Part shown: positions 12,736 through 45,411 of the stretch, piece by piece
Layout: every line of letters begins with the position of its first letter
How positions within the stretch are numbered: position 1 is the stretch's first letter
DNA from: a virus
DNA length: 64,000 nt
Strand: one strand, 5' to 3'
IMG/VR virus record: IMGVR_UViG_3300049436_000052
Span: 233,433-297,432 of that record
Position numbers and translations under genes: made by a program
The notes under the pieces: generated by a model
What the model was told of the DNA's origin: nothing
The model's database searches: none
What the model saw: only the letters and a program-made list of their open reading frames with translations

Positions 12736-13053
12736 ATGAAAACAAAAAAATTATTTATTGTAATTTTTATAATCCTACTATACTCATTATTAGGATTATT
12801 TGGTTGTACAAAACCAGTTAAAGAAACTGTGGAAGATCCAACAGTAACCACTACAGTAAAACTTCAAGAATTGCCAAAAGATACTGTTGTGATTAGTGTT
12901 GATGATGACAAGCTTTATGTTTTTGATAAAGATAATAAAGTTATTTATGTTACAACGGGTGAAAATATAACAGGAAATGGGATGTTAATATTTTTGTTTA
13001 TATTTTTAGTATTCTTTCTTATAATATCAATATTTGCCAACATTAATCAATAA
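12736..13053 (+). CDS. putative lipoprotein/membrane protein
   Basis: Signal peptide with LFGC lipobox and C-terminal hydrophobic helix. Confidence 0.6.
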   Translation: MKTKKLFIVIFIILLYSLLGLFGCTKPVKETVEDPTVTTTVKLQELPKDTVVISVDDDKLYVFDKDNKVIYVTTGENITGNGMLIFLFIFLVFFLIISIFANINQ

Positions 13054-13069
13054 TTAAAAATTTTCGATT

Positions 13070-13447
13070 ATGAAAACATTAAGAAGAGTTAGCACAAGTG
13101 AAAGACTTCCAACTAAAGAAGGGATTTATTTTGTTGTTAAATTAAACGGTATTATAGATACATTAGTTGCAATACCGAAAAATGAAAATAATAGAATTTG
13201 GTGGAAGCAAGATGTAGAATATTGGTATGAAGAAATTGAAAATTTAAATAATTTTGAATTTGTTATTCCACTACTTGAAGAATTAGGTTTTGTAAAAGGC
13301 GCTAAATATGAACATACAACAGGAACATATACATTAGATGGTGATTTATGTAGTGATGAAAATGGTGTATGTGAAACTGGAAGTGGAAATTATTTATGGG
13401 TTTACTTTAAAGGACTGTGTGCCAAATTAGTGAATAACGATTTTTGA
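13070..13447 (+). CDS. hypothetical protein (DUF551-like N-terminus)
   Basis: VSTSERLP..EG.Y.V...VEYW pattern. Confidence 0.5.
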   Translation: MKTLRRVSTSERLPTKEGIYFVVKLNGIIDTLVAIPKNENNRIWWKQDVEYWYEEIENLNNFEFVIPLLEELGFVKGAKYEHTTGTYTLDGDLCSDENGVCETGSGNYLWVYFKGLCAKLVNNDF

Positions 13448-13631
13448 ACCTAGTAATAAATATTAAAATGAAAACCAATGACATGTTTTGTGAATTGTTT
13501 GATAAAGAATTAAAAACAGTTTGTATTGGAAAAGGATTTATGTGTTTTAATGAAATGCACTTTGAATTGGAGAATGAACTTTATTTAGATCTAGCTAGAT
13601 TTATGAGTAATTTAAATCAAGAAATATTAAT

Positions 13632-13934
13632 ATGAACATAAAAGAACGTTATAAATTAAACAAATCGTTAAAAGTTGGTGATGTTTGCATTTGCCCTTCT
13701 TGTGGAAGTAAATTTATAAAAACTAATTATCAACAAGCTTTCTGCAAAACCAAAAGTAAAACAAAATGCAAGGATAGATACTGGAATACCGTAACACCAA
13801 CTAAAAGAAATAACACAACCAGAATTTCTCCTGCTAATGCTGCGTGGATGAGTAGTAGAGAAAACAGATTTAATCCTGAAGATTATGAACATCCATTTAG
13901 TTGTGAAGGATTAGGACAGTGGATAGATGATTAA
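13632..13934 (+). CDS. zinc-finger protein
   Basis: CPSCG...FC...CKDRYWN. Confidence 0.6.
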   Translation: MNIKERYKLNKSLKVGDVCICPSCGSKFIKTNYQQAFCKTKSKTKCKDRYWNTVTPTKRNNTTRISPANAAWMSSRENRFNPEDYEHPFSCEGLGQWIDD

Positions 13935-14580
13935 TTTACATACCAAATGAAAAGATTTAAAAAAGTTTTTATTGAATTAAAAATATATGAATAAAAACAT
14001 AAACACAATATTGACACAAAACACTATATTTTTGGTGGATGATTTATATAAATTCACACGTACTAATGTGGGTAATATATTTTTTGATGAAATTATGGAT
14101 GAAATAGATGATTTATATTATTTGTTTTTAGTAAATTCAATAAACGAATAAAATATCATAAAACTTTCATAAAATAAAAATCATGGAAAATTTGTTCAAC
14201 ATAATAATTAATAATTCTAAAGAAATATTTAAACATCAAATAGAATCACATCTTGAAATGTTTAGGAATAATTTGAAATTAATTGAGAAAACTAAAAGAG
14301 AATTATTTGATTCTTTTGAATTTCAGTTATCTCCAATGGAAAATTCTAATATACCAATATTTGATAATTTTCAACTAGAAGATAATAATCCCAAATCATT
14401 AAAAGATGTTCTTGAAAAGTATTGCAAAATAAACGATAGAGGGTATTATGAAAATAATAACGTTTCTTGTTGGTTATTAAAAAATTCATTAAATAATAGT
14501 GATTTGGTGGAAGTTTATCAAGGTAATAATCTTTTAGGGAATTTTACTAATATTAATGATTTGATAAGTTTTTTTGAAAA

Positions 14581-15089
14581 ATGATAAATAACAATATTTA
14601 TAAAAATTTAGATAATGTTTTACAGATAAACATTAATGTATTGGATGAATTAAATTTGGAACTTTATTGTGAACTTATTGATAATTTATATAATACTTCT
14701 GAAGATAGGGAACTTCGTATTGTGTTTAATTTTGTGGTTGAGTAATAAATGGAAAATCAGTTTTACGATAGAATTCAAAAATTTAGTTGGTTGTTTGATT
14801 ATGATATTGATCAGAAAATTTCAATAAATATAAAAAACATAATTTCTATTGAACTTAGATTAGAACTATATAAAGAATTAGGAAATTATTTTAGAATTAT
14901 GTTTAACGAAATAGAATGAATGATAAATTTTTAAATAAGGTTTATAGTGTTGATTGGCATTTAAATTCTGATCTTAATTACCCACTTTCAGGATATTTAC
15001 TTAATTTAGTTTATTCTGAACTTAAATCAGAACTCAATGAAGATTTAAATACTAATATTTATGATATATTTAACGAAATAATTAATTAA
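14581..15089 (+). other. three tandem minigenes (below ORF-track cutoff)
   Basis: Abutting ~55-aa ORFs with ELNLELYCEL / IELRLELYKEL / SELKSELNEDL tetrads. Confidence 0.65.
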
Positions 15090-15972
15090 AAATAGGAGAT
15101 AAAAAAAAATGACTTATAATGTAAGCGGTAAAGCAAATTGGACTATTCAAGACACTCCAAAAACAAAAAAAACCAAAGTAGAAGACAAGGTAGAAGAAAA
15201 AACAAATGTGGATTACAAGCCATTTGATAAAGATTCTTTTGATAGATTGTTATCAAATGCTAAAATAGAATATGATCTAACACACTCAAAGAATTTGGGC
15301 GATATCTTAACACATTTGGAAAGAATTGATAATTTACTTAAAATTTAAAACATTATGAAAATATTATGGTTTCTAATCTTTATAATTATAGAACTAACCG
15401 TTATTTGGTTAATAGGCAGTTTCATTGCGATGGATATAAATCCTTTACATTGGTGGTTATTTACTGAAGCTAGTGGAAGAATTGCATCAGTACTAATTCT
15501 TCTTCTATTAATTGCTGGTAATGTTAAAGCACTAACCGAAGATTATTGAAACAACCATTAATGCTAAATCTTCTGAATTAGATAGAATTAGAGAAAGCAT
15601 AACAGTCGATTTATCTGATATGCTTTCTTATTTTCTTTATTGGAAATATACAGAAATGTTTAGAAATATTTTTAATGAATTCGATGAAATTGAAAATATG
15701 TTTAATATCATTAATATACCAGTTAGTGATATTGAATGTATTTTGGATTAATATATTAGAAAATTTGGTATAACAAAAACAATAAAATTTATGCTTCTAG
15801 GGCTTTTATTTCTATTATTGACATTATATTATATAAGTGTTATTATCGCATTAATAATTGGTGATTATCACTCAAAAAAAGAATTCTACTTTGATCTTAT
15901 TCCATTGTTTGGGTTGGTTCAAATATTTATTTTATTTATGAAAATAATGAAAAAATAATATTAACTTAGAAT

Positions 15973-18248
15973 ATGAATAAATTTAATATACAACAGTTTG
16001 ACATTAAAGTACATATTGTCGTTAATTTGTGGTTTAATTTTGACTATGAATTTAAATATAAACTTATATGTGAATTGGAAGATTGTTTAAAAATAACATC
16101 AATGGCGGAGCTTGCAAATCTTGGTAATGAAATTTCAAGAAAATATTAGAATGAATAAAATTTTTGATATAAATTTACATAATAAGATAATTAAAACGTT
16201 TGATTCTATTGAAAATGTAATTGAAAATGATTTTAACTATATCCTATGTGATGAATTGCGTGAACTCATTAGCATTGATAATCGTTTTGGATTGACTGAA
16301 TTAACAAGATCAATTATTGAATGTTTATAATATTCTTTCATAAAAAAATGTTATGGATAAGAAATTTGATGAAAATTTGCTTAATAATATATTTAATATA
16401 ACCAATTTTATTGAAGAAATTGCTAATAACATTCATACTAGATTACTGTTTAAAATTCGTAATATTTTTATCAATAATAACAATACTATTAAATTGAATG
16501 AATTAATGGGTGCGATTGATGAGAACAATTGATTTAACCAGAAATAATCAAATTCTGATGAATATACGAAACTTTGAAAGAAACTTGAATTCAAAACTAA
16601 ATAAGTTTATTTTTGAATTTGAAAATGACTATATTCGATATGATTTTCTTGTTGAACTCTTTAATATTAATATTGATATTGGTGAAGAATATGACTATAA
16701 TATAATTTGTAATGAATAGTTTCTACAATAAATTACTTAGTAAATTTAGTTATAAATATTATAGTGAATTGTTTGGGATTGATAATCTCAACGACAATTT
16801 GTTTTCATTTCTTCGAAATGAATTAGAAATAAACATGGAACTTTATGAGGAGATCGAAACGTTTAATTATAATGAATAGAAATAGGTTATATGATGATTT
16901 GTATAATTTTGTTAATTATAAATTTGATGATGAAATTTGGGATATTGCTTATCTAAATTTAGAAGATAAATTAAACTTATTTCTTCAAAATGTACTTGAT
17001 ATTAATAAAGAGTTATATAATTTAAATGAAAACTTTATTCTTGATGAATGATCAGTTTTATGATATTTTACTTAATAAATTTAACAAGAAGTTAGATTTT
17101 GAATTTAGCAATAAATTAGATAGAAAACTTAATAATGAATTATATCTTACGATTTGGCATGAATTAGATCTTGATGTTATGTACAATATGTTTAATCAAA
17201 GGACTAATTCTGCTTTTTAAAAAACAACATTAATTGTAATAAAATGAATAAATTACACACACCACTTTATAGTAAATTGATATCATTTAATGATCATAAA
17301 CTTGCTGTAGTGACTAAAGAAATTGATGCTGAGTTGTTTTTAGTTCTTTGGGATTTTTTTGAAATGGATGTTTATCATGATATGTTTACTGGTGATAATA
17401 ATTCAGCATTTGAAATAAAATAAGAAATGGAAAATGATATTAATGTTATTGGTGAGTCTGGACACGACTTTGTAGATAAATTATATAATTATACGAATGG
17501 TTTAAATTTAAATTCCTTTATTGATTTAAATTTATTTAAACATTTAGATATTTAGATTTTAATTTTGGAAATTTAAGCAATTTTAAAATATTCTCTAATG
17601 AACTTTCTGAACTATATATTGATACAAAAATTTAGTAATTAATTCTATTTATGAAACGTTTCTTAATCGAAAATGTTTATTTAAATCAAATAGATTCTGA
17701 TTTTTATATGGATTTTGAAATGAAATTTTTATTATCTCTTTGGTCAAAAGTTCATGATGAAATAAAATTAGATATATCTAATCAACAATATGAACTTTAT
17801 CTTGAAATTGAAAAAACATACGAAAATGATTAATAACAAAACATCTTTCGAACCTAGAAAACTTGGTAATAATGAAACTGTTAATGAAATCATCCCTATA
17901 CTTAATATGTTGCTTAATCCAAATCTATATCTTGAGTTAACTGGTAATATATATGTTGAGGTTAATATAGAATTAAAAAATTGTATTGATCTTTCATTAC
18001 ATTTATCTCATTAAATTATGATGAATAGAAATAGATTGTATGTTAAGTTATATAATGGATTAAATCTTAATTTTGATGATGAAATTAATCCTAAACTTGA
18101 TAATTTATTTAACACAAATTTATATGTTGAACTAAAACGACTGTTAACTATTAATTTATATGTTGAAGTTAATAGAGAATTAAAAGACTGTATTGATCTT
18201 TCGTTACTTTTTTATGTTTATATACGAACTTTCTTCAAGGATTTATAA
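15973..18248 (+). other. minigene array B (~12 ORFs)
   Basis: Abutting short acidic ORFs with xxEL periodicity; local paralogs (MNRNRLY twice; NxYVEVNxELKxCIDLSL twice). Confidence 0.75.
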
Positions 18249-22642: not shown

Positions 22643-23658
22643 ATGTTCGAAAATAGTTTTGATAGTGTGATTAATGATAATCTTAATTGTTCAGATATAG
22701 GTTTTCCGTTTGATTGTAATACTTTTCCATATAATAAACTTTTAAATTTATTATATGATGATATGGATGTAGAATTGAGTCAGCTAAATTTTAATATACT
22801 TATTCATTGTAGTTCTTTTTCTGATTAATTAATAAGATAATATGACAAATTTTGACAATAAACTACACCAATCAATAACATTTCCATATTTTGATTATAA
22901 TATCTTGCTTAATGATCAACTTATTCATTTCTTGTCTAACAATCTTTATATTGAGTTAAATGATTTAAATAATAACATATCTACTATTTTAATATGAAAT
23001 TACCTAATCCAGAATTTAATGAAGATCTTTTTAATAAATTATTTAGGATTTTCAACAATAAATTATTTGAAAATATACGAAATGAATATTTTCAAATCGT
23101 TGAAAGCAAATCAAATATTGAAATACAAACTGAAGTTAGATTTTCATTAGTGAAAGAATTTAAAATTGATCTACTAAACGAAATTTCTAAACTATTGTAA
23201 TTAATTGGTATATTCTTATGAAAATAGATTTTTATAACACAACTCAAGATGATTTTTATAACATAATTCAAGATAATTTGGATGATAATTTTCGTTTAAG
23301 ATTATTGTATGATATTACTGCATTATATTGTCCAAGCATTGGAGGTAACAAATTATCAAAGCCATTACACCGTGAACTTATAAATACATTTGATTTTATT
23401 AGACTTGAAATATCATTTAATAGGTTATTTGATGTTAGTTTTTAATAATAAAATAATATATAAATGAAATCTATTGAAATAATACTTTATGATAAATTAA
23501 ATGGTTTTGATAAAAATTTATGTAATGATCTTATTAATGGTTATGTTTTATCAATTAAAGGTGAATTAAGTAGTGAATTACACAATGAATTTTATTTTGA
23601 AACTAAACAACTTCTATTTTTTGAAACATTATCCCTTTTGAACTTACCAGGAAAATAA
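22643..23658 (+). other. minigene array C (5 ORFs)
   Basis: Short acidic ORFs behind TAATTTTG (22616-22623). Confidence 0.7.
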
Positions 23659-23691
23659 TAAATCCTTTTAACATTATTTAACTATGTTAAG

Positions 23692-23717
23692 GAAACATTT
23701 TAAAACGTTTAATCGTA
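23692..23717 (+). promoter_or_regulatory. ECF-type promoter
   Basis: GAAAC-N17-CGTATAAG. Confidence 0.8.
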
Positions 23718-23752
23718 TAAGAACTATATAAACAATCTAAAACAATAACATT

Positions 23753-24142
23753 ATGAAAGCAAAATCAAAAAAAATTAAATTTTGGAATCTTCCGAAAGAA
23801 ATAAAATTAATTAAATTTCTATTTGATGGTGAAAAAGATAATAAATATTTAGATATTGTGGAATCTTTTTCATGGTCAGCAAAAAAAGAAAAAAAGTATT
23901 ATAAAATCACCAATCAAATTGATGAACTTGAAGTTTTAGGTAATGGCTGGAGAATTTATTGTTGGTATGACATTAGTGGATATGATTATTGGGTAAAACA
24001 ACAAGAAGAACCTAATTACATTGAGGTTACAATAAGTTTCGATAAAAAGTCAATTTTAAAAAGCGAAATCGGAAATATTGAAAATGCCTTAAACGATATT
24101 CTTAATAAATGCAGAGAAATTGAAAATAAATATTTTAGGTAA
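23753..24142 (+). CDS. hypothetical protein
   Basis: 129-aa ORF in promoter-gene-terminator cassette. Confidence 0.7.
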   Translation: MKAKSKKIKFWNLPKEIKLIKFLFDGEKDNKYLDIVESFSWSAKKEKKYYKITNQIDELEVLGNGWRIYCWYDISGYDYWVKQQEEPNYIEVTISFDKKSILKSEIGNIENALNDILNKCREIENKYFR

Positions 24143-24294
24143 AAATAATGTTAAGATAGGTAATTCTTTAAATAATGTCCCTTGTATAATAACCATATAA
24201 GGGATTTTTTTATTTAACATTTTTTAACTATTTGTTCGAAACAAAACAATGAGTTTTTACATATAAGTAATAAACAATATAAAACATAAGAAAT

Positions 24295-24600
24295 ATGAAA
24301 GCAATAAAAAAACAATCAATCATAATAAAGGTTTATGTGGCCTTTGCACAATTTCTAATTATCCCAAACATAAAAAAATTAACAAGGGATTTAGAACATA
24401 TTGAAAACGAATTGAAAAATGGTAAATGGTCGGATAAATTGCTACGAATTAAATTTTCTGAAAAGGATTTAGTATGTCCTCCTTATAGATATTATCTAAG
24501 TAAAGTTTCTGAAAATGAAAAAAAATCAGTAAAAGAATTCCATTTGAATCTTATTATTGAAGGGGTAAATAACCAAACAATTGAAATCTATTTTTATTAA
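24295..24600 (+). CDS. hypothetical protein
   Basis: ORF behind variant promoter GAAAC-N17-CATA (24238-24263). Confidence 0.65.
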   Translation: MKAIKKQSIIIKVYVAFAQFLIIPNIKKLTRDLEHIENELKNGKWSDKLLRIKFSEKDLVCPPYRYYLSKVSENEKKSVKEFHLNLIIEGVNNQTIEIYFY

Positions 24601-24664
24601 AAATCGTTTCACATAAAACATAATAAAACTTTTGAGTAAGCTATAATTATAAAATAATCAACAA

Positions 24665-25231
24665 ATGAAAAACTTAGAAAGAATAATCCAATTCTTATTG
24701 GAATACAAAATGAATGAGAAAACTGGATATAATATACATATTCAACATGCACCAGATTTAGATGTTACAACTAGTCATTGTTCTGATAATGGAATTACCT
24801 ACAAAGGACATCCATATTATTCAATTTTTAATGATATTTTAAAAACATATGAATCTGATTTTATATATCATGTAAAGAACAGTCAAGAAATTGATTGGGA
24901 AGGTTATTTAATAACTCCAATTCTAGGTTATATAATAAAAATAAACCTACTTTTTATTGATTATGGCACAAATAATGGTTTAGATTGGAATTATTCTATA
25001 ATTGGAATGATCAATTTGCCAAATGTGGATTATATTGCAAAGAATCATAATTTAGTTGAAAAAATAGTACAGCAAATATATTCGGATGAATCTATCTGGA
25101 AGCGAAATAAAAGAGAAAAAAATAAATTAGAAATTCATCCATATAAAAATATTTTTGGTAGAGAAATACAACCCACAAAAGGACTTAGGAAAAGAAAATC
25201 TAAAGCAAAACCTATTCCAAATTTATCATAA
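24665..25231 (+). CDS. hypothetical protein
   Basis: 188-aa ORF. Confidence 0.7.
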   Translation: MKNLERIIQFLLEYKMNEKTGYNIHIQHAPDLDVTTSHCSDNGITYKGHPYYSIFNDILKTYESDFIYHVKNSQEIDWEGYLITPILGYIIKINLLFIDYGTNNGLDWNYSIIGMINLPNVDYIAKNHNLVEKIVQQIYSDESIWKRNKREKNKLEIHPYKNIFGREIQPTKGLRKRKSKAKPIPNLS

Positions 25232-25725
25232 GTTAATTTTTGACATATGGAAGATACACATAAAACTAGGCAATATCTTAAAGAACTAAATGCAGTTTTT
25301 GTAGAAGATAAAATAATAGTAAGTCCAGCAATTATTAATAGTAAAATAGCCGTATTTACTCGAAAATATTATAAAAAAAGAAACAATAAAATTTGCTATG
25401 TTGATACAAACATAGTATTATTTAATGTTGAGTGGGATAAAACCAAAACACACAAAAACGTTTCAAACATCTATATTAATGATTGGAATAATACGTTTTT
25501 TAAAAATGAAATTACAAAAATTTCAAAAGAATATAAAGAGGAACTGATCGAAAAATACATTAAAATACATGTTAGTTAGTTGTTTATAATTGTTTATGCT
25601 AATAATCCCTGAGATTAAATTTAGTTTCAGGGATTAATTATTTTATATAATAGCACTTACATAAATATCGTTTTACATAATAATTTTTAATAAATTACTC
25701 CTAATAAAATATATTTATTACCTTT

Positions 25726-27681
25726 GTGAAAAAATATTCAATAATTAATCTTAATTTAAGTTTTATGCAATTACTATCAGGACTATCAGGTTTAACAGAA
25801 TTTGATTTATTTAATTTTAATTCTGATTTAAAAATTTGTCTTTGGACTGTTCTTTATAGTGAAATTAGAGGTAGTCTAAGTATAGAATTTAATGAACTTA
25901 ACAATAATATCTTTTTATAAATTTGTGACAACAATAGATAATAAACTTAGTATAAATCATTGGTCAATATTTTATCATACAAGAATTACTGAAAGTTATT
26001 TTTGGAATGTTCTTGATGATGAAGGTAAGAATGATTTAGCTATAGAACTTAAAGAGCTTAATATATTATTTTATGTAAATTTATGAAAACAATCGAACTT
26101 AATAATAAAAAGTATTATAAACTCCTAATAGACACACATAGCCTTTGGAGCGAAATTAAATATTGTTTTAATGATGAATATTTAAACCAAATTTATGACA
26201 TATGCAAAGATGAATTTGAGGGGTTGTGGGATGAACTTAAATTAGAATTGGATTATATATTATAACTAATGAATTGTAATGTTATGAAAGAAACAAATGT
26301 AGATGTTAATATAAATTTGGCCAACACTTTAAATAAAATTATAAAAGATATAAACTGTCAATATAATTTAAAACTTTGTATTGAACTTAATAATCTTCTA
26401 TTTATCGATTTATATCCTATGGCTAATGAATTACTTTATATAGATTTATGAAGAAAATATTAAATTCAAGACTAGTTCAAATTGGGGATGATTTTTATAA
26501 GGATCTTGCTAAAAAAATTGAAATTGAACTTCAGAAATTTCTATATAATCAACTCTTGTCTGATTTATATAGTGAATTTTATCCTGAGTCACCATTCGGA
26601 AATCTAAATTTATAAAATTTAAATAACAATGTTAACGTTTAATAAATTAATCGAAATAAAACATTATCAAAATGTTGAGTTCTGCAATAATTTCCATAGT
26701 GAGATTAAGACAGAAGTTTGGAATTTTCTATATAGAGAAATTAAATCAGAATTGCATGAAAATTTTGATAACGAATTTTATATAATATTTAGTGAAATAA
26801 TCAAATAAACCTTGTGTTATGTATGAAATAAATGTTAAGTTTATCACACATTGGTATGATAATATTAATATCTATGATATTTTTTATAGTAATCTTGATA
26901 ATGAACTTTGGGAATTTCTTAACGATAAAATTAATCTTGATTGCTATAGAGATTTCAAAGAACTTGATAGAGAATTAAGTTTTTATAGAAATTTATGAAA
27001 AACAATGGATGATAAACTCAATATATATTGCTATAGTTTTAATTCAGAATTTTGTGATAAAATTTATCACAAATGCGATGATAAACTTTTTAAAGAATTT
27101 ATACATATATTCAATAATGTGTTTACCGATACATGGAATATGCTTACTATAGAATTTATGTTATGAAAAAAACAAATAAAATTTTTATTAAAAATATAAA
27201 TAATACATTATTGGATATTGTGTCATTAGATTTAAATTATTCATGTGGTATAAATTTTTATATTGAACTTAAAGATAAATTATTTAATGATTTGTATCAT
27301 ACATCTAACGAAATCCAATTACTTTAAAATATGACAACACCACATAAAAAAATAGGTATTCAATTTGATAGAGATTTATATTGTGAACTCGCTGAGAATA
27401 ATCTATATGATAATCTTTGGAAATTTCTTTATAAAGAACTTACTAAAGATTTAAATATTGAACTTGATGTTTTTTCAGGAATAAATAAGGAACTTATAGA
27501 TTGTATTAATTTATAAATGAAAAAAACAATATTATTTAATATTATTTTTAATCGATATAATACTCAATTATTCGAAAACCCTCTTATTAAAAATAATGTA
27601 GATAATAAACTTTATGTAGAAATATTAAATATATGTTATGTTGAATTTTTCGAATTGTTTTATGAATTATATTATATTTGA
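25726..27681 (+). other. minigene array D (~11 ORFs)
   Basis: Abutting 50-64 aa ORFs, often ATGA-coupled, with LWxFLYxEL/IEL tetrads; TACCTTTG at 25719-25726. Confidence 0.75.
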
Positions 27682-31580: not shown

Positions 31581-31730
31581 ATGTGTAATGAATTTAATAA
31601 ACTTGATATTGAACTTTATAGTAAAGTTCATACTAATCTTTTTATTGAACTTTGTAATGAACTTTTTAATGAACTTCGAAATGAGATTTGTAGTGAATGT
31701 GATGAACTTAATAGGAATTGTATGATCTAA
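31581..31730 (+). CDS. minigene (49 aa) with clear 12-nt/4-aa repeat
   Basis: MCNEFNKLDIELYSKVHTNLFIELCNELFNELRNEICSECDELNRNCMI; different frame from ORF-track 31507..31725. Confidence 0.7.
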   Translation: MCNEFNKLDIELYSKVHTNLFIELCNELFNELRNEICSECDELNRNCMI

Positions 31731-32434: not shown

Positions 32435-32593
32435 ATGAATAATAAACTTTCTAATAAAGTTGATAATAATCTTTGTAATGATCTTTCCAAAGATATTACT
32501 AGAAAACTTCATAATGATCTTTCTTTAAAGAACGAACTTTGGTTTAAACTTGAAGTTGAAATTTGGAATAATCTTTCTATTTACAACATTTAA
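32435..32593 (+). CDS. minigene (52 aa)
   Basis: MNNKL-SNKV-DNNL-CNDL-SKDI-TRKL-HNDL...; TACCTTTG at 32414-32421. Confidence 0.65.
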   Translation: MNNKLSNKVDNNLCNDLSKDITRKLHNDLSLKNELWFKLEVEIWNNLSIYNI

Positions 32594-33611: not shown

Positions 33612-34898
33612 ATGAAAATAGATAAACTTACAAAAGAACAAGAAGAAAAATTATCTTCATATAGAATAAAATGGTTGAATAAGATATTTAACTATGATTT
33701 GTATAATTCAATAACATTTGAATCTGTAAAAGAAAAAATGAAAGAATTGTATAACTATTGTAATTTAGATGAACCACTAGTAATTTTATGTGATAGTCCA
33801 TTTGCTTGTCAAATTGCTGTTAATATTTTTAAAGTTGAGGATCAAGTTGGGGATCAAGTTAGGAATCAAATTTGGAATCAAGTTTGGAATCAAGTTGGGG
33901 ATCAAGTTGGGGATCAAGTTAGGAATCAAGTTGGGGATCAAGTTAGGAATCAAGTTTGGAATCAAGTTGGGGATCAAGTTGGGGATCAAGTTGGGGATCA
34001 AGTTAGGAATCAAGTTAGGAATCAAGTTGGGGATCAAGTTGGGGATCAAGAATATTTTACATTTTCTTCTTATATAAATTATAGTGATTTTGGATGGCTA
34101 TCTTTTTTTGATTTTTTTCTTAATGAAAAAATAATTAATTCGAATTTAGTAAATCAATTCAACAATATTATAGATTATGTAAATAATTCGTTTTTATCAA
34201 TACAATTAGATAAGTTATGTATTGTAAGCAAATATCCTTCAAAAATAATTAGAAATGAAAATAATCAATTGCATAGTATTTCAGGATCTGCAATTGGATT
34301 TGGAGATGGATATGAACAACATTATTATAATGGCATTTTCATAAAACCTGAACTATTTGAAAAACTTATATCTAAAACATATACTTTTGAAGATTGGACA
34401 AAAGAATCTAACGAAGAAATAAAAAGTTTGGTTTTGGCATTTTATGAAGAAAAGTTTGGAGGTGAATTTGTTTATAGGTTTTTATCAAAACATTTGAATG
34501 AGGTTAATACATATGTTGATAAAAAATCAGACGAGTATTTGAAAAATACGACCAAAGGAATGAATTTAGGGGTATATACATTATTTAAAGGAAATATTAA
34601 TAATAATAAGATAGCGTATGTAAGATGTTATTGTCCTTCAACTGATAGAATGTTTTTTTTAGGTGTGCATCCAAATAACAATAATGCAAAAGACGCTATT
34701 GCATCATTATGTCAAGTTCCAGTAAAATTAAAGGATGAATTAATTTCAATAAACAGACAAGGTGAAATATTTTCGTTTAATTTTACTGAAAAGGGAACAA
34801 ATATGTTAAAAAATAAAGAATTAACAAAAGAAGATTTCCTTAATGTTGTTTCTTTATCAGGAAATGAGTATTTTTGTAAAATAAAATTTGAATATTAA
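33612..34898 (+). CDS. DUF6745-like protein with tetrapeptide repeat
   Basis: MKIDKLTKEQE N-terminus, DSP motif before the repeat, WLSFFDFF, LH...G.AI.F.DG, C-terminal CPSTDRMFFLGV...A.DAIA. Confidence 0.75.
   Translation: MKIDKLTKEQEEKLSSYRIKWLNKIFNYDLYNSITFESVKEKMKELYNYCNLDEPLVILCDSPFACQIAVNIFKVEDQVGDQVRNQIWNQVWNQVGDQVGDQVRNQVGDQVRNQVWNQVGDQVGDQVGDQVRNQVRNQVGDQVGDQEYFTFSSYINYSDFGWLSFFDFFLNEKIINSNLVNQFNNIIDYVNNSFLSIQLDKLCIVSKYPSKIIRNENNQLHSISGSAIGFGDGYEQHYYNGIFIKPELFEKLISKTYTFEDWTKESNEEIKSLVLAFYEEKFGGEFVYRFLSKHLNEVNTYVDKKSDEYLKNTTKGMNLGVYTLFKGNINNNKIAYVRCYCPSTDRMFFLGVHPNNNNAKDAIASLCQVPVKLKDELISINRQGEIFSFNFTEKGTNMLKNKELTKEDFLNVVSLSGNEYFCKIKFEY
33840..34049 (+). repeat. 12-bp coding tandem repeat, 17.5 units
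   Basis: CAAGTT followed by GGGGAT, AGGAAT or TGGAAT = (D/N)QV(G/R/W). Confidence 0.95.
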
Positions 34899-34904
34899 TT
34901 AATA

Positions 34905-35147
34905 TTGAAAACAATGAAAACAAAAGAAAAAGTAAACATTGCAAAAAAATCTACAGAAGGGCATTTTGTAGAAAAACACAAACAAGTAATTTGTTTAGAC
35001 GATACAAAAGAAGCATTTTTTGTTGAGGGTGAAGCTGAATTAAGTACAAAAAACCATCAAACATTAACACTTGAAAAAGATTGTTTGATTATTCCACAGC
35101 AGGTATATAATCCTTATTCAAAATCACTTGAAAGAAGTAGGGATTAA
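34905..35147 (+). CDS. small partner protein typically adjacent to DUF6745 genes
   Basis: TEGH...H.TL.L......QQ.YNP.....SRD pattern. Confidence 0.6.
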   Translation: MKTMKTKEKVNIAKKSTEGHFVEKHKQVICLDDTKEAFFVEGEAELSTKNHQTLTLEKDCLIIPQQVYNPYSKSLERSRD

Positions 35148-35424
35148 TATAATAAAAATCTTTTTTTATATAACTACTTCTAAAGAATTGCTTTTAACTA
35201 AATTTATCTCATAACAATTTATTTAAAATCCTTTATAGAAAATTTCTGTAGGGGATTTTTTTTATTAATAACATTTATCTAATAACTTTAAAAGAAATAT
35301 CTTTAGAGTAAATTATGTTTAACTAAATTTATTTAAGTACTTTTCATTAAATTTTTGTTATGTTCCATAAATATACTTAATAACTATTATCTAAAGACAT
35401 TTAAGAAATTTTAACTATAATAAG

Positions 35425-38345: not shown

Positions 38346-39332
38346 GTATAATTAACATTTTATAAATTCCTATAAAGTTATTATCTTTGCATAATTTCTA
38401 AGGTCATAATTTTTTCTAAAAATTTTTTTAGAAGTTTAAATTTAAAGCAAGTTTATTAAATATTTTTTTTTCAGGGCTATAAAACAAATTTATTTTATGA
38501 AATACAAATTAATAAAAGGTATAAAGGAAAGATTATATGATGAATTGATGCGTACTAAGTTTGATAAATATCATATAGATGTGTTATATGATATTTTGTT
38601 TGATGAATTGAATACATATGATGAAGAAATAGATAGGATTATATCGGATTCGCTATATATTTAAATTTAATTAAAAGTATTTTATGGAAAAAATTTTAAT
38701 TGACAATTTAATGAAAAATTTGGTAGATGAATTAATTGACAAGCCTATATTCATCTACTTGCCACCTATTTCAACTATGAAAACGGATTTTTATAAAATT
38801 TTGTTTAATGATTTATATGAAAAATTATCAGAAGATGAATTTGAATTACGAAGATTATTTTAATAAACATTATTTTATGAAAAGTATAGAAAACAATTTT
38901 ATATCGCCATTCAAAAAGAAAATTCATTTAAATGATGAGTTAATTAATTCTCACACTCATTTTTATTGTTTGGGAGATAATAAAGATTTAACAGATGATT
39001 TGATAAAGGAAATTTATTCAAAATTAATTAGAGAAATAAACAGAGAACGTATTTCATTAGAGAATGGTGTATTTTTTTTGATAGCTTAATTACAGAGAAA
39101 AGCATGGGGTTTCTGGATTTGCCAGTAAATTATATTTTAAGAAATATTTAGTTATGAAAGATGAATTAAGAAAGAGAATATCAATAAATTGGGAAGATGA
39201 GTTATTAGACTATGGAATTTTATATGCAGTTAAATTTAGCAAAGATACACGTCTAAGTCTTTTACATAAAATTTTATTTAATGAATTGGATTCACAAGAT
39301 GATGAATTAAAAAACATTCTTGAACAAATAAT

Positions 39333-39722
39333 TTAATTCATAGTAATTTCATGAATCTTATTTAAAATAATAGATTCTTTTTTATAGGTTCTGGGTGAAG
39401 ATAATCTTATGATATGAATTTCATTATCTTTACAAAATCTATTTTTTAATTTATCGGTTTTTCTAATTCGTTTAAGTTTTTTTAAACCATAAATTGGTTG
39501 TGTATGATGTAAACCATCATATTCTATAATAAGATTATACTTAGGAAGATAAAAATCAAATGGTAATAAATTTATATTACGACAACTATTAAACACTTTT
39601 TGATAAATGAATTCTAAATTATTTTTGATTAAAATCTCAGCAACAATTTTTTCACCTGTTGACATTTTATCCTGTGTTAAATTTGTCATAAATTTGTTAA
39701 TTAAATATAAAACAATTCGCAA
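39333..39722 (-). CDS. Vsr/DUF559-like PD-(D/E)XK endonuclease domain protein
   Basis: STGE...LPFDFYLP...IIEYDG.HH...DKLKN.FC...I.IIRL; true start may be MTNLT. Confidence 0.75.
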   Translation of the reverse strand: MRIVLYLINKFMTNLTQDKMSTGEKIVAEILIKNNLEFIYQKVFNSCRNINLLPFDFYLPKYNLIIEYDGLHHTQPIYGLKKLKRIRKTDKLKNRFCKDNEIHIIRLSSPRTYKKESIILNKIHEITMN

Positions 39723-41012
39723 ATTTAAATAAATATTTTATATTTGTTGGTTAATAATCCTGAAATATTTTCATTTAACAACAAATTTACTATGAAGTCA
39801 TTTATTAATAAGAGTTATAAAATTTTAGTTATTGTAATTTATAAAAAAAATGTAAATGATAGATAATTTATTATGTGGTATAAGAAAGAATTTGTATGAT
39901 GAATTAATTCAAAACATTTTTTATCGTGATTATATTTCTGGAAAAATAGTAGAAAGAAAATTTATAGATTTGTTGTTTAATAATTTATTTGAATTAACTG
40001 AACAGGATTTTGAATTGTATGACACTATTGAATAGATAATTTAGCTCAAAAAAATTTATTTCAAAATAATAAGTTTAATTAAATTTACTAAAGAAATTAA
40101 TTATGAAATATAAATTATTAACTGGTATAAAAAAGAATTTGTATGATAACTTTATTGGCGAATATATAATTTATACCACAATTTCTTCAATTATAGATAA
40201 TGGTTTATATGATAATTTGCTAAGTAGTTTATATGATGAATTACGTGATATGGATGATGATTTTCATTTTTTATTATGTAGAACAATTTATTTTATTTAA
40301 ACAATATTTAGAGAAATTTAGTTATTATAATTTATGAAAATAAACAAATTAAATAAAAAATTATTAAATAGTTTGTGTGATGAGTTAATTATTAATTATT
40401 GTTCATTTATTTGTATATCAATAAAAACTTCACCAAATTATATGAAAATTTCAGATAGCTTATCATTTCAAGAATTAAATATGGAATCAGATATATTAGA
40501 TAGTATGTTTTGTCAAGAAATTAGTGAATAAGATTTATTTCATAACAATGTATTTGAAGTGGTTTCTTTACCCTAATTTATAAAAAAAATTAGTTATGGA
40601 CATTGATTTAGAAAATAACATTAGAAGTTTTTTGAATGATGAGTTAATTAATCATTCTATATTTATTGGTATTAATTTGACATATCTGAATAAAGATATT
40701 TATTGGGTTTTATATAATGATTTATTCGATGATTTACATAATATTGAACTTAGGTTACATCAAATAATATCTATAAAAACTTAGTTACTATGTTTACAGA
40801 AAAATTAGATAACAAATTACGAAATTTAGAAATACTTAATATTATATTAACAATAGACAATGATTTAATATATGAATTGTCTGACAAGATTTGGGATGAA
40901 ATACATTTAAATAATCAGGAATTGTTTATAACGATAAGTAATATTTTGTTTAATATCAATGATAATATTAAATATGACTAAGATAAATTTGGATTATAAT
41001 GTTATTGCACAT

Positions 41013-41063
41013 ATTGATAGCAATATTATTGATAGCAATATTATTGATAGCAATATTATTGAT
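41013..41063 (+). repeat. 15-bp tandem repeat inside a minigene
   Basis: ATTGATAGCAATATT x3 (IDSNI). Confidence 0.9.
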
Positions 41064-44000
41064 AATTTAAAGGATGAATTAATATCATCTAATAAATATA
41101 TAATTACATTAGAATTAGATGATATTAATTTTTTATTGGTAAATGAATTAGATGTTATTTTACTTAGAAGTCTTTTTAATGAAGAAAATGATTTACATGA
41201 GTTAATGTTAGATGTTATTTAAAACTATTAGTTAAAGGTAATTTATTAAAAGCAGTTTAATAAACTAAGTTTTATGATAAATTTTAATGAGAACTTATTA
41301 GGAAAAATAAGTAATGAACTTGAGGATTCTTTATTGAAAATAGGTTTAGTGAAGTATAAATATAATATAGAATCGACCATATTTAGTGAATTACATGTGG
41401 AAATATTTAGTGAATTGTATGGGGAAGTATATAATTCAGAATCAGAATTATTTTTCTCAATAACGCAATTATTAGATGATGAAGAATATTTATGATTATC
41501 ATTAATAAAAATTTAATAATGATTTTAGTTAAACGGGATGGGAAATTAATAGCCTTTAAATTATAAAATTGATTAATAAGTATTTTTATCTAAAGGTTAA
41601 TATGTAAAATTTATATTATGATAAATATAATAAGATTTGAAAATCAACTTATCAATAAATTATCAGATGAATTAATACAAAGTGAAATTGCAGTTCCACA
41701 AAATTATTTAGAAGGTCTATTGTGGTTTGATTTGAATTTTTGGGATACTGAATTAATTCATTCTATTAATATTGAATTATAAAGGACTAATTTATAATTT
41801 TTATGTTATGATATCATTACAAAAATTTATCTGACGAATTGATAGATAGAAATATTTTTATATATTCTTATTCTAATAATAGAATATTACGAGATTTGCT
41901 ATTGGTTGAAATCTATGTGTGGGATTTTGATTTATTTGATTCTATTAATATTTGTATATAAGATTTTTAGTGAGCATGTGTTATGATAAACATAGTAAGA
42001 TTTGAAAATATTATTTTGAACAATATGTCTGATAATTTGATAGATAAAAATGTGTTTATAAAACCTTATTCTATAACATTTTATAATATAATATACGATT
42101 TATTAATAACTGAAATAAATGAGCAAGAAAATGATTTATATCGTTGTATTAATAGTAAAATATTTGAATTTTAATAAACATTGTATTATGAAAAACAAAC
42201 TAAATGAAAATTTAATCACAAATTTATCTGATAAATTAATAGATAAAAGTATTGTTATAAGTCCATTTCTTAATAAAAAAATATTATACGAATTGTTGTT
42301 ATTTGAAATAGATCTACAAGACAGTCGTTTGATTATGTGTGTTGATAGATGTCTATTTTTTTAATAAACATTATATGAACATGATGACATGAAAGACCGA
42401 TTATAATAATTAATTAATGGTGTTTAAGTTATGTTTGAGAAATCTTTAGAATTAAAATTTTATAAATATCGTTCTATGCGTTATGCAGTAAGTTTTTTTG
42501 AGAATCTACTTATCAATAATTTATTAGATGAGTTAATAAAAAGTGAAATTGTTTGTTGGTCTGATGTGTGTTTCTCTACATCACTTAAATTATTATACAA
42601 CGAATTGTATTTTGATATTAATAATAGTAATAGCAAATTAATACATCTAATAAATGCACAAGTTTGAATCATATTTTTACAAAATTAAGATTTTATGAAA
42701 ACATTTTTAAATAAATCTTAATTTTTTTAAATTTATAATTAAATACAATGATGGGTTGGTAAGGATTTCAGTAGATTCTGTTAAAAATAAGAAATAATAT
42801 AAAAAAATATGGTTGATAGTCGATTTTCTTGTAGTCATCTTAATAAGTATGACTTATTTTTTGATGCTGTAGAACCCTATGGTGTTTATATAAAAGTTGT
42901 TTTTGGTGATGTAGTAATCAAAGATGAAGAACTTGATTTATTATTAAGAATATCGATTATTAATAATAATATGTAAAAATATGACTAATAAATCTTTTAA
43001 TAAGAAATTTATTCACAAGAAACTAGATAAAGCAATATTTGAATTGGAATTGGAATCAATGGAATACGATGAACTTGGATATAAGTTATATTTTGAACTT
43101 AGAAAAGGTTTATACAATAATATTTTTAGTGATTTACATAACTTAGTAATTTTATCAATTAAATAAAATTTACTAAAGAAATTAATTATGGAATATAAAT
43201 TAATAATTGCTATAAAAGAAAATTTAGAGGTGTTAGCAATTATGAATTGAATGACATTTCTGGTGAAGTTTTTATTTTTTTAAAGAATAGTTTTTCAGAT
43301 ATTGAGGACAGAAATAATGAATTATCTACTTCACTTTTTTACTTTATTTGATTAAATAGATAAATTTGTTGATAATAAATTAATAATATATTTTTAAATA
43401 ATTATGGAATATGTTGAACTAACTTTTGAAGGAACTGTTGAATCTAACTTATTTCATAATTTCATTTATTCTTTAGATGAAGATGTATTTAGCGATGATC
43501 TTATTTATAGTGATGTTGGTAGTATATTACAAGATTTCGAACAACTATTAGATAGTATTTTTGTTTGGGAGTTAATAGATTTAATTTAATAAAAAACATA
43601 TCATATGTTAAGATTTGATATAGATTCTAAAAATAAACTTTCAAGTGAATTATCTGATGAATTAATTAATATTACCAGTATACTTTTTCTATATAGAGAA
43701 GATGTGTTGTCGAGTGATTTATATAAGGAATTGCGTGGTATATTATTTATAGAATCATTTAATATATGTGATGATTTAAATGATATTTTAAAAAATGAAC
43801 TAGGATATGTTTATTAATTTAATTGTTCTTTTCTTAGCATTTTAACAAAAAACGAAAAAATGCTATTACATTTAATAATATAATTTTTATATATGAAACA
43901 AAATTTTTGACTATATTTTCCATCTATGGAAGTTAGAATAAAATCATTATTTGAAGATTCTTGATACCATGCAACCATGTTCTTTTTAAAAATAGTTGAC

Positions 44001-45411
44001 ATGGGTTTGATGATTTTAACTAAAGTATTTTCCATAAAATAGTTTTAAAATAAATAGTTAAACAATAGACAATAATACATTCAAAAAAATATAAATATGA
44101 ATAATATTTTAACCGGAAATCTTCTTAATTCTTTATCTGATGAACTTATCGATAAATTCCTTTGGTTTAATACCAAACCACATTTTTATTACGATCTATA
44201 TCTTGAAATGAGTAATATATTATATTCAGAAATTTCTGAAAAAACTATTGAATTAGATAATGCAATTTCTGCCGCTTTTAACCAAATAAATTTTATCCAA
44301 TGAAAAAAATAGATGAATTATTTTTTGATAGCGATTTAACAAAAAATCTTCTTGATGGAATTTTAGATAGTTTAATTGATAGTTTTTTTATATATTCTTT
44401 GCGCACTGTTTGCATTGATAGGGATTTACAAAAAGAATTAAATAAATTAATAATTGATGAAATGAGGAATAATGACGATCAATTAAACGGAGCGTTTGAC
44501 AATACAATATATTTTTTACCAAATAACGAATTCTAAAACATGAATAATTTAGAAAATATACTTTTAAATAAATTAAATGATGAACTTATTGATAATTATG
44601 CTATTTTTTATTTACCTAATAACTTGTTAGAAGAAAAAGTTTATGTAGAATTGATAATATTGGTGAGAGATGAAATGGAAACTCTTGATGATATGTTAGT
44701 TATTGACTCTTAATTCTTTTGAAATTAAATCTGTAACATCATCCAGTATGTAGTGATTAAATTCTAGGTTATTGAAAATAAAATGCCTTACTAGAACATC
44801 GGTTTTTTTCTCTATTGAAGAATTAAATTTTTCATGTATTTTAACACAAATTTTATCTAATCTATTACAAATCTTTAAAATATTTCTTTTATGAGGGAAT
44901 TTCATTTTGACATATAATTATTTCAAGAATTATTATCTTTTTTCCATTTATTAAAAATTTCTATTTGCCTTTTTGTTAATTCTTCAGCCTTTTCTGATAT
45001 TTTTCTTAAAAGATTATTTTCTTCTTCGTTAGTTTCGTCCCACATTTTATCTTCACGATAACCCAAATAAGATAATAAATCAATAAACATCATTTCATTT
45101 GAAGTTTTTAATTTACTTTCTAGTGGAATGCTTTTCATCAAATCTTCTATTAATTTTGATGTATATTCTTTGGGTTTAGGAATCTTTTTCATTATTATAT
45201 AACATTAACATTAAATCATGTTCAAAATCTATTTTTAGTAAATCACCAATTTCTAAAAAAAGTCTTCTACTAACCTCATAAAAGAAATCTTTATCCTTCA
45301 TAGTAGTAAAATATTTACATTTTTTTAAAACTTTTTGACGTGTTTTAATGCTATTAGTTTTAAGTAAAGCAAGTGTTGAAGAATCAATGTGGTTAAAATT
45401 CATAGCATATT

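What the first reader, a model, noticed from the sequence alone, without database searches (positions are those of the whole stretch)
33612..35147. DUF6745 repeat protein may be the full-length counterpart of the minigene library
Seen: the DUF6745-like gene carries a ~70-aa insert of 17.5 (D/N)-Q-V-(G/R/W) tetrads, written almost entirely with three 12-nt words. Variation is confined to first codon positions, so it is non-synonymous, while third positions are invariant. The minigenes have a similar length and the same register, (N/D/S)-E-L-(Y/F/W/R/H), including visible 12-nt repeats at 31581-31730. Inference: minigenes are free-standing versions of this variable repeat segment. They could act in trans on the DUF6745/partner complex or its target (decoy or tuning subunits), or serve as donors for cassette-like variation.
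Basis: partly seen in the sequence, partly recalled or inferred. Interest (0 to 1): 0.8.

Follow-up and report, generated by a model that had tools for sequence, protein, structure and literature searches.

The report
Phage DUF6745 hypervariable four-residue repeat
A jumbo phage gene of an unstudied family (DUF6745) carries a fast-changing four-amino-acid repeat; the phage's roughly 50 mini-genes are free-standing versions of that kind of repeat, but they most likely serve a second, repeat-less DUF6745 copy elsewhere in the genome, not this gene.

Summary
Gene 33612-34898 is a DUF6745 protein with 17.5 (D/N)QV(G/R/W) tetrads, written as an 18-copy 12-nt tandem repeat that varies only at first codon positions.

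The repeat is not a peculiar insert. Most of 394 homologues carry a tetrad array at the same site. In 29 arrays, variation is confined to codon positions 1-2 of two residues.

A 77-aa partner gene follows in 43 of 43 related loci.

The link to the minigenes is right at family level. A minigene profile searched against 1.84 billion proteins found only this phage's own minigenes and tetrad-array proteins, mostly DUF6745.

The specific counterpart is probably wrong:
- This gene keeps its own QV-type array, which the minigene profile does not match (-0.3 bits).
- Two sister jumbo phages that have minigenes lack this gene.
- A second, array-less paralogue lies about 30 kb before the window. Its relatives carry SEL arrays (40-48 bits).
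- In the sister phages the minigenes surround that paralogue.
- A complex model docks a minigene beside its array site (0.74; best control 0.01).

The cassette-donor idea is rejected, because the array shares no DNA homology with the rest of the genome. The function is unknown.

This scan has already noted detached DUF6745 repeats in other genomes.

The parts
33612..34898 (+). DUF6745 paralogue 'A', 428 aa: N-terminal helical part (aa 1-75), tetrad array (aa ~76-146), C-terminal alpha/beta core (aa ~150-428)
   Evidence: ORF. Pfam PF20530 at E 6e-8, above the cut-off. phrog_31813 at E 1.4e-5. 394 homologues. AF2 model with pLDDT 88.
33832..34050 (+). 12-nt tandem array, 18.2 copies, encoding 17.5 (D/N)QV(G/R/W) tetrads. 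The model shows it as two helices, aa 80-106 and 109-142.
   Evidence: TRF, sequence, codon tables, AF2 secondary structure with pLDDT 66-87 in this stretch.
34914..35147 (+). 77-aa partner gene (alternative TTG start at 34905), 16 nt after the stop of gene A
   Evidence: A homologue lies directly downstream of the DUF6745 gene in 43 of 43 related loci, phmmer E 1e-15 to 7e-40. No Pfam or PHROG family. Its C-terminal 35 aa align to the 126-aa partner of paralogue B, hhalign E 1.3e-4, probability 54%.
35225..35259 (+). Terminator-like hairpin plus T-tract that closes the two-gene unit
   Evidence: Consensus scan: 3 terminator-like sites found against 0.2 expected.
31581..31730 (+). 49-aa EL-type minigene with a visible 12-nt DNA repeat (31638-31697)
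   Evidence: TRF period 12, 5 copies. Minigene HMM E 1e-4.
32435..32593 (+). 52-aa EL-type minigene with a 12-nt DNA repeat (32440-32487)
   Evidence: TRF period 12, 4 copies. Minigene HMM E 2e-7.
10194..18248 (+). Minigene arrays, first block (12 HMM-positive ORFs, 54-76 aa)
   Evidence: Iterated HMM built from 39 paralogues; genome-wide it gives 52 hits, 43 of them on the + strand at window 10.2-44.7 kb.
22842..27681 (+). Minigene arrays, second block (11 HMM-positive ORFs)
38497..44713 (+). Minigene arrays, third block (18 HMM-positive ORFs, 'L..L.DELI ... LY.EL' type)
   Evidence: One member (44097-44303) was used in the complex model.

Best explanation
Gene 33612-34898 and the 77-aa gene after it form a complete, self-contained copy ('A') of a widespread phage two-gene module: DUF6745 plus a small partner.

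Its (D/N)QV(G/R/W) tract is the family's standard variable element. This is a run of four-residue units (a = V/L/I, b = hypervariable, c = semi-variable, d = Q/N/E/S) inserted at a fixed site between the N-terminal helices and the C-terminal core. The model shows it as a helical hairpin projecting from the core.

Shown: the array is built from 12-nt units. These units are kept identical at every silent site within an array, which implies rapid turnover by slippage or unequal recombination. Meanwhile several versions of residue b (and c) are retained. Arrays differ in length and unit order even between genes whose remaining sequence is identical.

Inferred: the b/c stripe is a selected, fast-changing recognition surface that sets what the module binds.

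The phage's roughly 50 EL-type minigenes are the same kind of element detached from its protein. They most likely work in trans on the genome's second, array-less DUF6745 paralogue ('B', 355 aa, about 30 kb before the window, with a 126-aa partner) by docking beside the vacated array site. They probably do not act on gene A, which already holds its own array in cis. On this reading one phage runs the same machine in both a fixed (cis) and a library (trans) configuration. The biochemical activity of the core is unknown.
For: Family-wide array:
- Most of the 120 listed homologues, and about 30 of 43 loci, carry tetrads at the same site, with a lineage-specific constant residues.

Site-specific diversification across 29 arrays (674 units):
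- b1 varies in 28 arrays, b2 in 24, c2 in 12, c1 in 6.
- a3, b3, c3 and d3 vary in only 2, 6, 2 and 3 arrays; a2, d1 and d2 in 0 to 1.
- Gly and Arg use GGG and AGG/CGT inside arrays, but GGA/GGT and AGA in the rest of the same genes.
- Silent positions differ between arrays, which points to concerted evolution.

Turnover:
- L029 vs L030 and L016 vs L020 have 100% identical 3' 780 nt but different arrays.
- 12 of 41 IMG/VR contigs end inside the array.

Module:
- The partner gene is adjacent in 43 of 43 loci.

Minigenes are the same element:
- A profile search of 1.84e9 proteins gave 29 hits: 15 are this phage's own minigenes and 14 are tetrad-array proteins. Of the 14, 8 have Pfam DUF6745 and 3 more are DUF6745-like.

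Paralogue B:
- It matches the DUF6745 HMM at E 1e-42, is 27% identical to A, and has no array.
- Relatives P0130, P0145 and P0127 (42-48% identical) have SEL arrays exactly where B has a 40-aa linker.
- In the tree, B, its two sister orthologues and P0130 form a clade (SH-aLRT 97), while A nests among NQV-type arrays.
- Minigene HMM scores: SEL arrays 40-48 bits, A's array -0.3 bits.

Sister phages:
- L047 has 12 minigenes between the B core and its partner, and more on both sides.
- L046 has a 509-aa all-tetrad ORF at that place.
- Neither has an A-type gene.

Complementarity and type matching:
- Array-less loci L035, L036, L033 and L023 carry SV- or QV-type minigenes.
- A strict scan found no free-standing tetrad ORF in the array-bearing loci; its only positives there lie inside L006's own DUF6745 gene.

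Docking:
- B core plus minigene 44097-44303 scored 0.74, with 0.01 as the best of 3 controls.
- That mark was reached by 58 of 80 solved complexes and 2 of 110 mismatched pairs; these counts hold only roughly here, because my own alignments were used.
- The runs agree in at least 78% of contacts, and the partner's pLDDT is at least 64.
- Contacts on B include residues 119-142, directly after the array site.
Against: - In this genome the minigenes flank gene A on both sides (10-45 kb of the window), whereas B lies about 40 kb from the main arrays.
- Binding of minigenes to A was not tested.
- The minigene-to-array similarity is a periodic pattern, so it cannot by itself prove common descent. 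A periodic profile will favour any long L-x-x-E array.
- The complex model is a prediction. It had no co-evolution signal, because the minigene alignment consists of paralogues.
- The tree is a quick search with SH-aLRT support only, and P0130 sits on a long branch.
- The array differences between near-identical genes come from short-read metagenome assemblies, which are error-prone in tandem repeats.
- Several array-less homologues (L037-L039, L026) have no visible minigenes, so the array is dispensable for some members.
- No function, target or fold relative was found for the core.
Confidence: 0.6

Rival explanations
1. One reading: the minigenes act in trans on this gene's product (A) or its 77-aa partner, as decoy or tuning subunits that compete with or extend A's own array.
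For: Gene A lies in the middle of the minigene arrays on the same strand. The tetrad register is the same. A is homologous to B, whose modelled interface with a minigene lies beside the array site, so A's core could have a similar groove.
Against: A's site is already occupied by its own array. The minigene profile does not recognise QV arrays (-0.3 bits). Array-bearing homologues in 20 other phage records have no free-standing matches. Sister phages with minigenes lack A. The detached minigenes seen elsewhere match the tetrad type of their own array-less core.
Confidence: 0.15
2. The minigenes are silent donor cassettes that recombine into the A array (pilin- or VSG-like gene conversion).
For: Many diverged copies lie near an expressed repeat gene, and two neighbouring minigenes show 12-nt DNA repeats.
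Against: BLAST and k-mer comparison of the array against the rest of the 334-kb genome gives only chance-level matches, and those lie in the AT-rich flanks. The minigenes encode L/E tetrads with different codons. Each has its own start codon and a near-constant length, as expected of expressed genes.
Confidence: 0.02
3. There is no relationship: minigenes and array are independently evolved amphipathic or low-complexity helices in an AT-rich genome.
For: hhalign of the minigene alignment against the DUF6745 alignment gives no match. Mean identity among the minigenes is 17%. Periodic profiles inflate scores, and the bias scores are high.
Against: The periodicity is strictly lag 4/8/12 with depletion at lags 3 and 7, unlike ordinary helices and unlike the control ORFs. 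Among 1.84e9 proteins the only non-self hits are tetrad arrays, mostly DUF6745. In sister phages the minigenes sit between the B core and its partner. Free-standing tetrad ORFs and built-in arrays are complementary across loci. The docking model passes its controls.
Confidence: 0.12
4. The A array is a neutral, slippage-prone linker (spacer) with no selected sequence content.
For: Copy number ranges from 2 to more than 50 among homologues, and some members lack the array entirely.
Against: Across 29 arrays the variation is almost entirely non-synonymous and confined to two residue positions, while silent sites are homogenised. The frame is always kept. The b residues come from a narrow set (W/R/G/E or D/Y/R/G/S).
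Confidence: 0.08
5. The variation is written by a targeted mutator, such as a diversity-generating retroelement.
For: Variation is restricted to defined codon positions and is purely non-synonymous.
Against: Invariant codons in every unit (AAT, CAA) are full of adenines that never vary, which is the opposite of adenine-directed DGR mutagenesis. The genome holds no template copy of the array. No reverse-transcriptase family was listed among the neighbours in L001 or L002. The few linked unit types fit duplication of whole units.
Confidence: 0.02

Closest known systems
DUF6745 (Pfam PF20530; phrog_31813), an uncharacterised family of phages, prophage-like elements, Bacteroidota, Cyanobacteriota and others
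   Same: Gene A matches the Pfam model above its cut-off. It shares the conserved C-terminal motifs, the array at the canonical site and the downstream small partner.
   Different: Nothing is published on the family: no paper holds 'DUF6745' or 'PF20530'. The Pfam model covers only part of the core and says nothing of the array or the partner. This genome also holds an array-less paralogue that Pfam does not detect.
Detached-repeat DUF6745 systems noted earlier in this scan in other phage genomes (notes e1-5679444, e1-5669528, e1-5679442, e1-5669532)
   Same: An array-less core plus partner, with tens of free-standing tetrad minigenes predicted to dock at the array site. I reproduced this independently in L035, L033, L023, L047 and L046, and for paralogue B of this genome.
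   Different: Here an intact array-bearing module (A) coexists with the split one (B) in a single genome. The minigenes lie around A rather than around B.
In-frame tandem-repeat 'contingency' proteins that change by slipped-strand mispairing, such as surface proteins of bacterial pathogens and the NANP tetrapeptide repeats of the Plasmodium circumsporozoite protein (from my own knowledge, not tested here)
   Same: Short in-frame DNA units, fast change of copy number, and concerted evolution of the units.
   Different: In this family a single residue position per four-residue unit is kept diverse within each array, the array is intracellular and phage-encoded, and it can be replaced by trans-acting minigenes.
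Repeat proteins with a per-repeat specificity residue (TALE RVDs, PPR/PUF codes) and LRR recognition domains (from my own knowledge)
   Same: It may work like these: a constant scaffold with one or two variable residues per repeat in a regular stripe. A cluster of cyanobacterial proteins combines LRR domains with DUF6745; their order along the protein was not checked.
   Different: The unit is only 4 residues, no ligand is known, and there is no sequence or fold relationship. This is an analogy only.
Diversity-generating retroelements and silent-cassette gene conversion (pilE/pilS, VSG)
   Same: Localised non-synonymous diversity in one gene, with many related copies nearby.
   Different: There is no template repeat, no adenine specificity and no DNA homology between the array and the minigenes.

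Membership tests
DUF6745 (PF20530) two-gene module | Match to the Pfam model above the gathering score | tested here: met
   32.6 bits against a cut-off of 27, E 6e-8, aa 199-279. The own-genome search gives the same single Pfam match.
DUF6745 (PF20530) two-gene module | Conserved C-terminal core shared with homologues | tested here: met
   394 homologues at up to 72-75% identity. Invariant G241, N267, E268, G283, C339, S343, D345, R346, R382, Q383 and G384 in 68 sequences.
DUF6745 (PF20530) two-gene module | Tetrad array at the fixed site between the N-terminal helices and the core | tested here: met
   Array at aa 76-146. The same site is used in homologues with QV, NV, NI, SV, AV, QL and EL types.
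DUF6745 (PF20530) two-gene module | Small partner gene directly downstream | tested here: met
   43 of 43 related loci, phmmer E 1e-15 to 7e-40.
Split (detached-array) DUF6745 system | The core lacks the internal array | tested here: not met
   Gene A keeps 17.5 tetrads. The feature is met by paralogue B outside the window, at G000:203132-204199.
Split (detached-array) DUF6745 system | Free-standing minigenes whose tetrad type matches that of the core's array-bearing relatives | tested here: not met
   For A, the minigenes are L/E-type and A's clade is QV-type; the profile score is -0.3 bits. For B the feature is met: SEL arrays of its relatives score 40-48 bits.
Split (detached-array) DUF6745 system | A minigene product binds the core at the array site | not tested
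For B the model supports binding: score 0.74, best of 3 controls 0.01. The mark was reached by 58 of 80 solved complexes and 2 of 110 mismatched pairs (counts rough, own alignments). At least 78% of contacts are shared between runs, and the partner's pLDDT is at least 64.
Diversity-generating retroelement target | Variation at template adenines only, with a template repeat and reverse transcriptase nearby | tested here: not met
   Adenine-rich codons AAT and CAA are invariant. There is no second copy of the array in the genome. A reverse transcriptase was not searched for genome-wide.
Silent-cassette gene conversion system | DNA homology between donors and the expressed locus | tested here: not met
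   Only chance-level BLAST and k-mer matches.

The most novel reading that the evidence does not exclude
One phage runs the same unknown machine in two configurations. The first is a fixed one (A), whose hypervariable four-residue helical hairpin is built in and evolves by unit shuffling. The second is a combinatorial one (B), whose hairpin has been detached into 50 or more interchangeable minigene products that dock on a single core. That would give dozens of specificities from one enzyme or adaptor, a protein-level 'library' strategy not described for viruses. The b-residue stripe (W/R/G/E or D/Y/R/G/S) would act as a recognition code for variable host targets such as defence proteins.
Probability: 0.4. 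Interest if true: 0.85.

Novelty: new variant of a known kind. Interest (0 to 1): 0.68.

Why it matters
DUF6745 plus its small partner is a common but wholly unstudied phage module.

This work establishes three points about it:
- Its repeat is a family-wide element.
- The repeat is diversified at specific sites: non-synonymous variation at one or two residues per four, with silent sites homogenised.
- The same element can exist either inside the protein or as a library of separate minigenes.

Together these give a concrete, testable model for a new kind of variable recognition system in phages. They also offer an explanation for the otherwise puzzling expansion of about 50 micro-proteins in a 334-kb phage.

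For this finding in particular, the result redirects experiments from the repeat-bearing gene A to the repeat-less paralogue B as the likely receptor of the minigene products. Gene A then serves as a natural cis control within the same genome.

Tried and rejected
- Fold searches. The full model (pLDDT 88) and the C-terminal domain model (pLDDT 84) were searched against PDB by Foldseek and VIA-align wide. No E value reached 0.001, and the best Z was 5.8/5.1, on a 49-residue beta-meander only. The ESM Atlas search returned only DUF6745 clusters, one of them combined with LRR domains.
- Family libraries. PADLOC and NCBIfam gave nothing meaningful. PHROG and Pfam gave nothing for the minigenes, for the 77-aa partner or for paralogue B; the 126-aa partner matches phrog_27831, which has no known function. 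The Atlas search with the 126-aa partner returned only unnamed viral and bacterial clusters.
- hhalign of the minigene alignment against the full DUF6745 alignment gave no match. This is uninformative, because array columns are mostly gaps in that alignment.
- Word-indexed search with the minigene profile returned only the phage's own proteins. The 'longer' search for fused forms found none.
Two exact-pattern scans of metagenome contigs with the array flanks found nothing.
- tblastn of the core against 50,697 GenBank phage records gave no match at E 1e-5.
- Literature. No paper holds DUF6745, PF20530, or 'tetrapeptide repeat' together with phage and hypervariable.
- The looser generic scan for tetrad ORFs gave Fisher p = 0.001. 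On inspection, its positives in array-bearing loci are ordinary helices, so the strict scan is the better evidence.
- The sigma-70 promoter scan was at background level.
- DGR and cassette-donor mechanisms were considered and rejected.
A plus a minigene and A plus its partner were not run.
Full report
**Setting.** The window is part of a 334,326-bp virus record (window = G000:233433-297432) with about 23% G+C. Earlier notes of this scan call it a jumbo phage of Bacteroidota.

- ORF 33612-34898 (+) encodes 428 aa. It matches Pfam DUF6745 above the gathering score (32.6 bits against 27) and phrog_31813.
- Tandem Repeats Finder reports a 12-nt repeat at 33832-34050, with 18.2 copies and score 312.
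- In frame this gives 17 tetrads plus DQ of (D/N)-Q-(V/I)-(G/R/W).
- The units are three 12-nt words plus one ATT variant.
- Every difference is at a first codon position, and all third positions are identical.

**The repeat is a family feature, not an insert**
- A search with the C-terminal 289 aa found 394 homologues of 241-614 aa.
- Most of them carry a tetrad run at the same N-proximal site. The a and d residues are constant within a lineage (QV, NV, NI, SV, AV, QL, EL) and one position is variable.
- 41 IMG/VR loci and two metagenome contigs gave the DNA.
- Across 29 arrays (674 units), variation occurs at b1 in 28 arrays, b2 in 24, c2 in 12 and c1 in 6.
- The third positions a3, b3, c3 and d3 vary in only 2, 6, 2 and 3 arrays. 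The a and d codons almost never vary.
- V-type arrays use NGG/GAG at b (W, R, G, E, L, M, V). L-type arrays use NNT or NNC (D, Y, R, G, S, N, H, C).
- Gly and Arg codons inside arrays (GGG, AGG/CGT) differ from those in the rest of the same genes (GGA/GGT, AGA).
- Silent positions differ between arrays but not within them. The units are therefore homogenised faster than silent changes accumulate, while several b (and c) variants are kept. This is the signature of concerted evolution plus selection for heterogeneity at b/c.

**Array turnover**
- The gene pairs L029/L030 and L016/L020 have 100% identical 3' 780 nt but different unit number and order.
- 12 of 41 contigs end inside the array.
- Both observations come from short-read assemblies, so they are suggestive rather than proof.

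**The module**
- A 77-aa gene (34914-35147) follows gene A after 16 nt, and a terminator-like hairpin closes the unit.
- A homologue of this small gene lies directly downstream in 43 of 43 related loci.
- AF2 with 68 sequences gives pLDDT 88. The array forms two helices (80-106 and 109-142; block pLDDT 66-87) between an N-terminal helical part and an alpha/beta core.
- Neither the whole model nor the core alone has a convincing PDB neighbour. The activity remains unknown.

**The minigenes**
- All-against-all phmmer followed by an iterated HMM defines 39 paralogues in the window and 52 in the genome. 43 of the 52 lie on the + strand at window 10.2-44.7 kb.
- They are 49-93 aa long and acidic (median net charge -4).
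- They are strictly four-periodic. L autocorrelation is 2.1, 1.9 and 1.6 at lags 4, 8 and 12, and 0.60 and 0.77 at lags 3 and 7. Ordinary amphipathic helices and the control ORFs do not show this.
- Their register (a = L/I/F, b = Y-rich and variable, c = D/N/S/K, d = E/N/K/D) parallels that of the arrays.

**Are they related to DUF6745 arrays?**
- An exhaustive HMMER search of 1.84 billion representative proteins with the minigene profile gave 29 hits at E <= 0.001.
- The 15 short hits are all this phage's own minigenes.
- The 14 long hits all contain tetrad arrays. Eight have a Pfam DUF6745 match. Three more (P0127, P0130, P0145) have the DUF6745 architecture by alignment.
- The remaining three attach similar arrays to other domains, for example a Ras-like GTPase.
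The minigene family itself is so far unique to this phage lineage.

**Which DUF6745?**
- Prompted by earlier scan notes, I searched the genome with an HMM of the DUF6745 alignment.
- This found a second paralogue, B, at G000:203132-204199. It is 355 aa, scores E 1e-42, is 27% identical to A, and has no array. A 126-aa His-motif partner follows it.
- The B relatives P0130, P0145 and P0127 (42-48% identical) carry S-E-L-x arrays exactly where B has a 40-aa non-repeat linker.
- In a tree of the C-terminal core, B, its two sister-phage orthologues and P0130 form a clade (SH-aLRT 97). A nests within NQV-type arrays. This was a quick search, and P0130 is on a long branch.
- The minigene HMM scores the SEL arrays at 40-48 bits, an SQL array at 27.5 bits, A's array at -0.3 bits, and other QV arrays below zero.
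- The genome has no V-type small ORFs.

**Synteny and complementarity**
- Two sister jumbo phages (327 and 340 kb) have only the B-type gene, and it is array-less.
- In L047, 12 minigenes lie between the B core and its partner, with many more on both sides.
- In L046, a 509-aa all-tetrad ORF occupies that place, and two minigenes follow the partner.
- On the A side of the family, the array-less loci L035 (at least 40 minigenes of SV type with conserved ends), L036, L033 and L023 (QV type) carry free-standing tetrad genes of their own clade's type.
- A strict scan found no free-standing tetrad ORF in the array-bearing loci; its only positives there lie inside L006's own DUF6745 gene.
- The minigene profile found none in 20 full records that hold an A-type gene; every match fell inside the DUF6745 gene itself.
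- Built-in and detached arrays are thus largely complementary, and they match in tetrad type.

**Docking**
- The complex model of B core (alignment A3) with minigene 44097-44303 (alignment A2) scored 0.74; the best of 3 controls was 0.01.
- That mark was reached by 58 of 80 solved complexes and 2 of 110 mismatched pairs. The counts hold only roughly here, because my own alignments were used.
- The runs agree in at least 78% of contacts, and the partner's pLDDT is at least 64.
- Contacts on B include residues 1-23, 47-68 and 119-142. The last stretch lies immediately after the array insertion site.
- The model supports binding but does not show it.

**Rejected ideas**
- Cassette donation: the array has no DNA homology elsewhere in the genome.
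- A DGR-like mutator: adenine-rich codons are invariant and there is no template copy.
- A neutral linker: this does not fit the site-specific non-synonymous pattern.

**Verdict**
- Gene A is an ordinary, complete member of an unstudied family. Its repeat is that family's hypervariable element.
- The minigenes are the detached form of the same element. The weight of evidence assigns them to paralogue B rather than to A.
- The main counter-argument is position: in this genome the minigenes surround A, not B. A plus minigene binding was not tested.
- This scan had already recorded detached DUF6745 repeats in other genomes. New here are the coexistence of cis and trans forms in one genome, the type-matching rule, the codon-level rule across 29 arrays, and the complementarity test.

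Noticed in passing
L030:6566-8422 (compare L029): In L030 the array is read in two frames within one open 619-aa ORF. S-E-L-x units switch to A-N-L-(V/I) units, which are the +1 frame of the same 12-nt word, and then return to frame before the core. This is either a pair of compensating frameshifts or an assembly artefact. The window's own array is also open in a second + frame (33790-34077, 'GIKL') and on the minus strand (33786-34049, 'LIPN').
   Followed up: partly
L005, L007, L008, L009, L018, L019, L020, L022, L025, L026, L028, L031 (locus starts): 12 of 41 IMG/VR contigs that carry a DUF6745 homologue end inside or at the tetrad array. The array systematically breaks short-read assemblies, so many database 'proteins' of this family are truncated.
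   Followed up: no
L046:11060-12589: A 509-aa ORF made almost wholly of EL-type tetrads lies between the array-less DUF6745 core and its partner in a 327-kb sister phage. It looks like about eight minigenes fused into one protein, or their precursor.
   Followed up: partly
P0129, P0144, P0146 (hits): Tetrad arrays of the same L-(Y/H/D/R)-x-(E/K) type are attached to other domains: a Ras-family GTPase (P0129, 471 aa, very AT-rich composition) and an unknown C-terminal domain (P0146). The array is therefore a module used outside DUF6745.
   Followed up: no
ESM Atlas cluster, row 2: A cluster of 72 cyanobacterial proteins combines LRR_4/LRR_8 domains with DUF6745. If the LRR sits at the array position, that would support a recognition role for the array. 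The domain order was not checked.
   Followed up: no
window 33832-34050: Each D-type unit (GAT CAA) creates a GATC site. There are 10 GATC sites in 219 bp, against 124 in the whole 64-kb window. This is probably a by-product of the codons, but it would be a dense Dam or MboI-type target cluster.
   Followed up: partly
window 30186-31397: A 403-aa protein carries LPD29 and LPD30 domains (large polyvalent-protein-associated domains) as a stand-alone gene, just upstream of the two repeat-bearing minigenes and gene A.
   Followed up: no
L035:10815-19028: At least 40 head-to-tail minigenes of 51-104 aa share nearly identical ends (start 'MILGKSIKDKV', end 'SVPKIKE') and have variable x-x-S-V tetrads between them. 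The first one overlaps the stop of the array-less DUF6745 gene. This is a much more regular library than the one in this window.
   Followed up: partly
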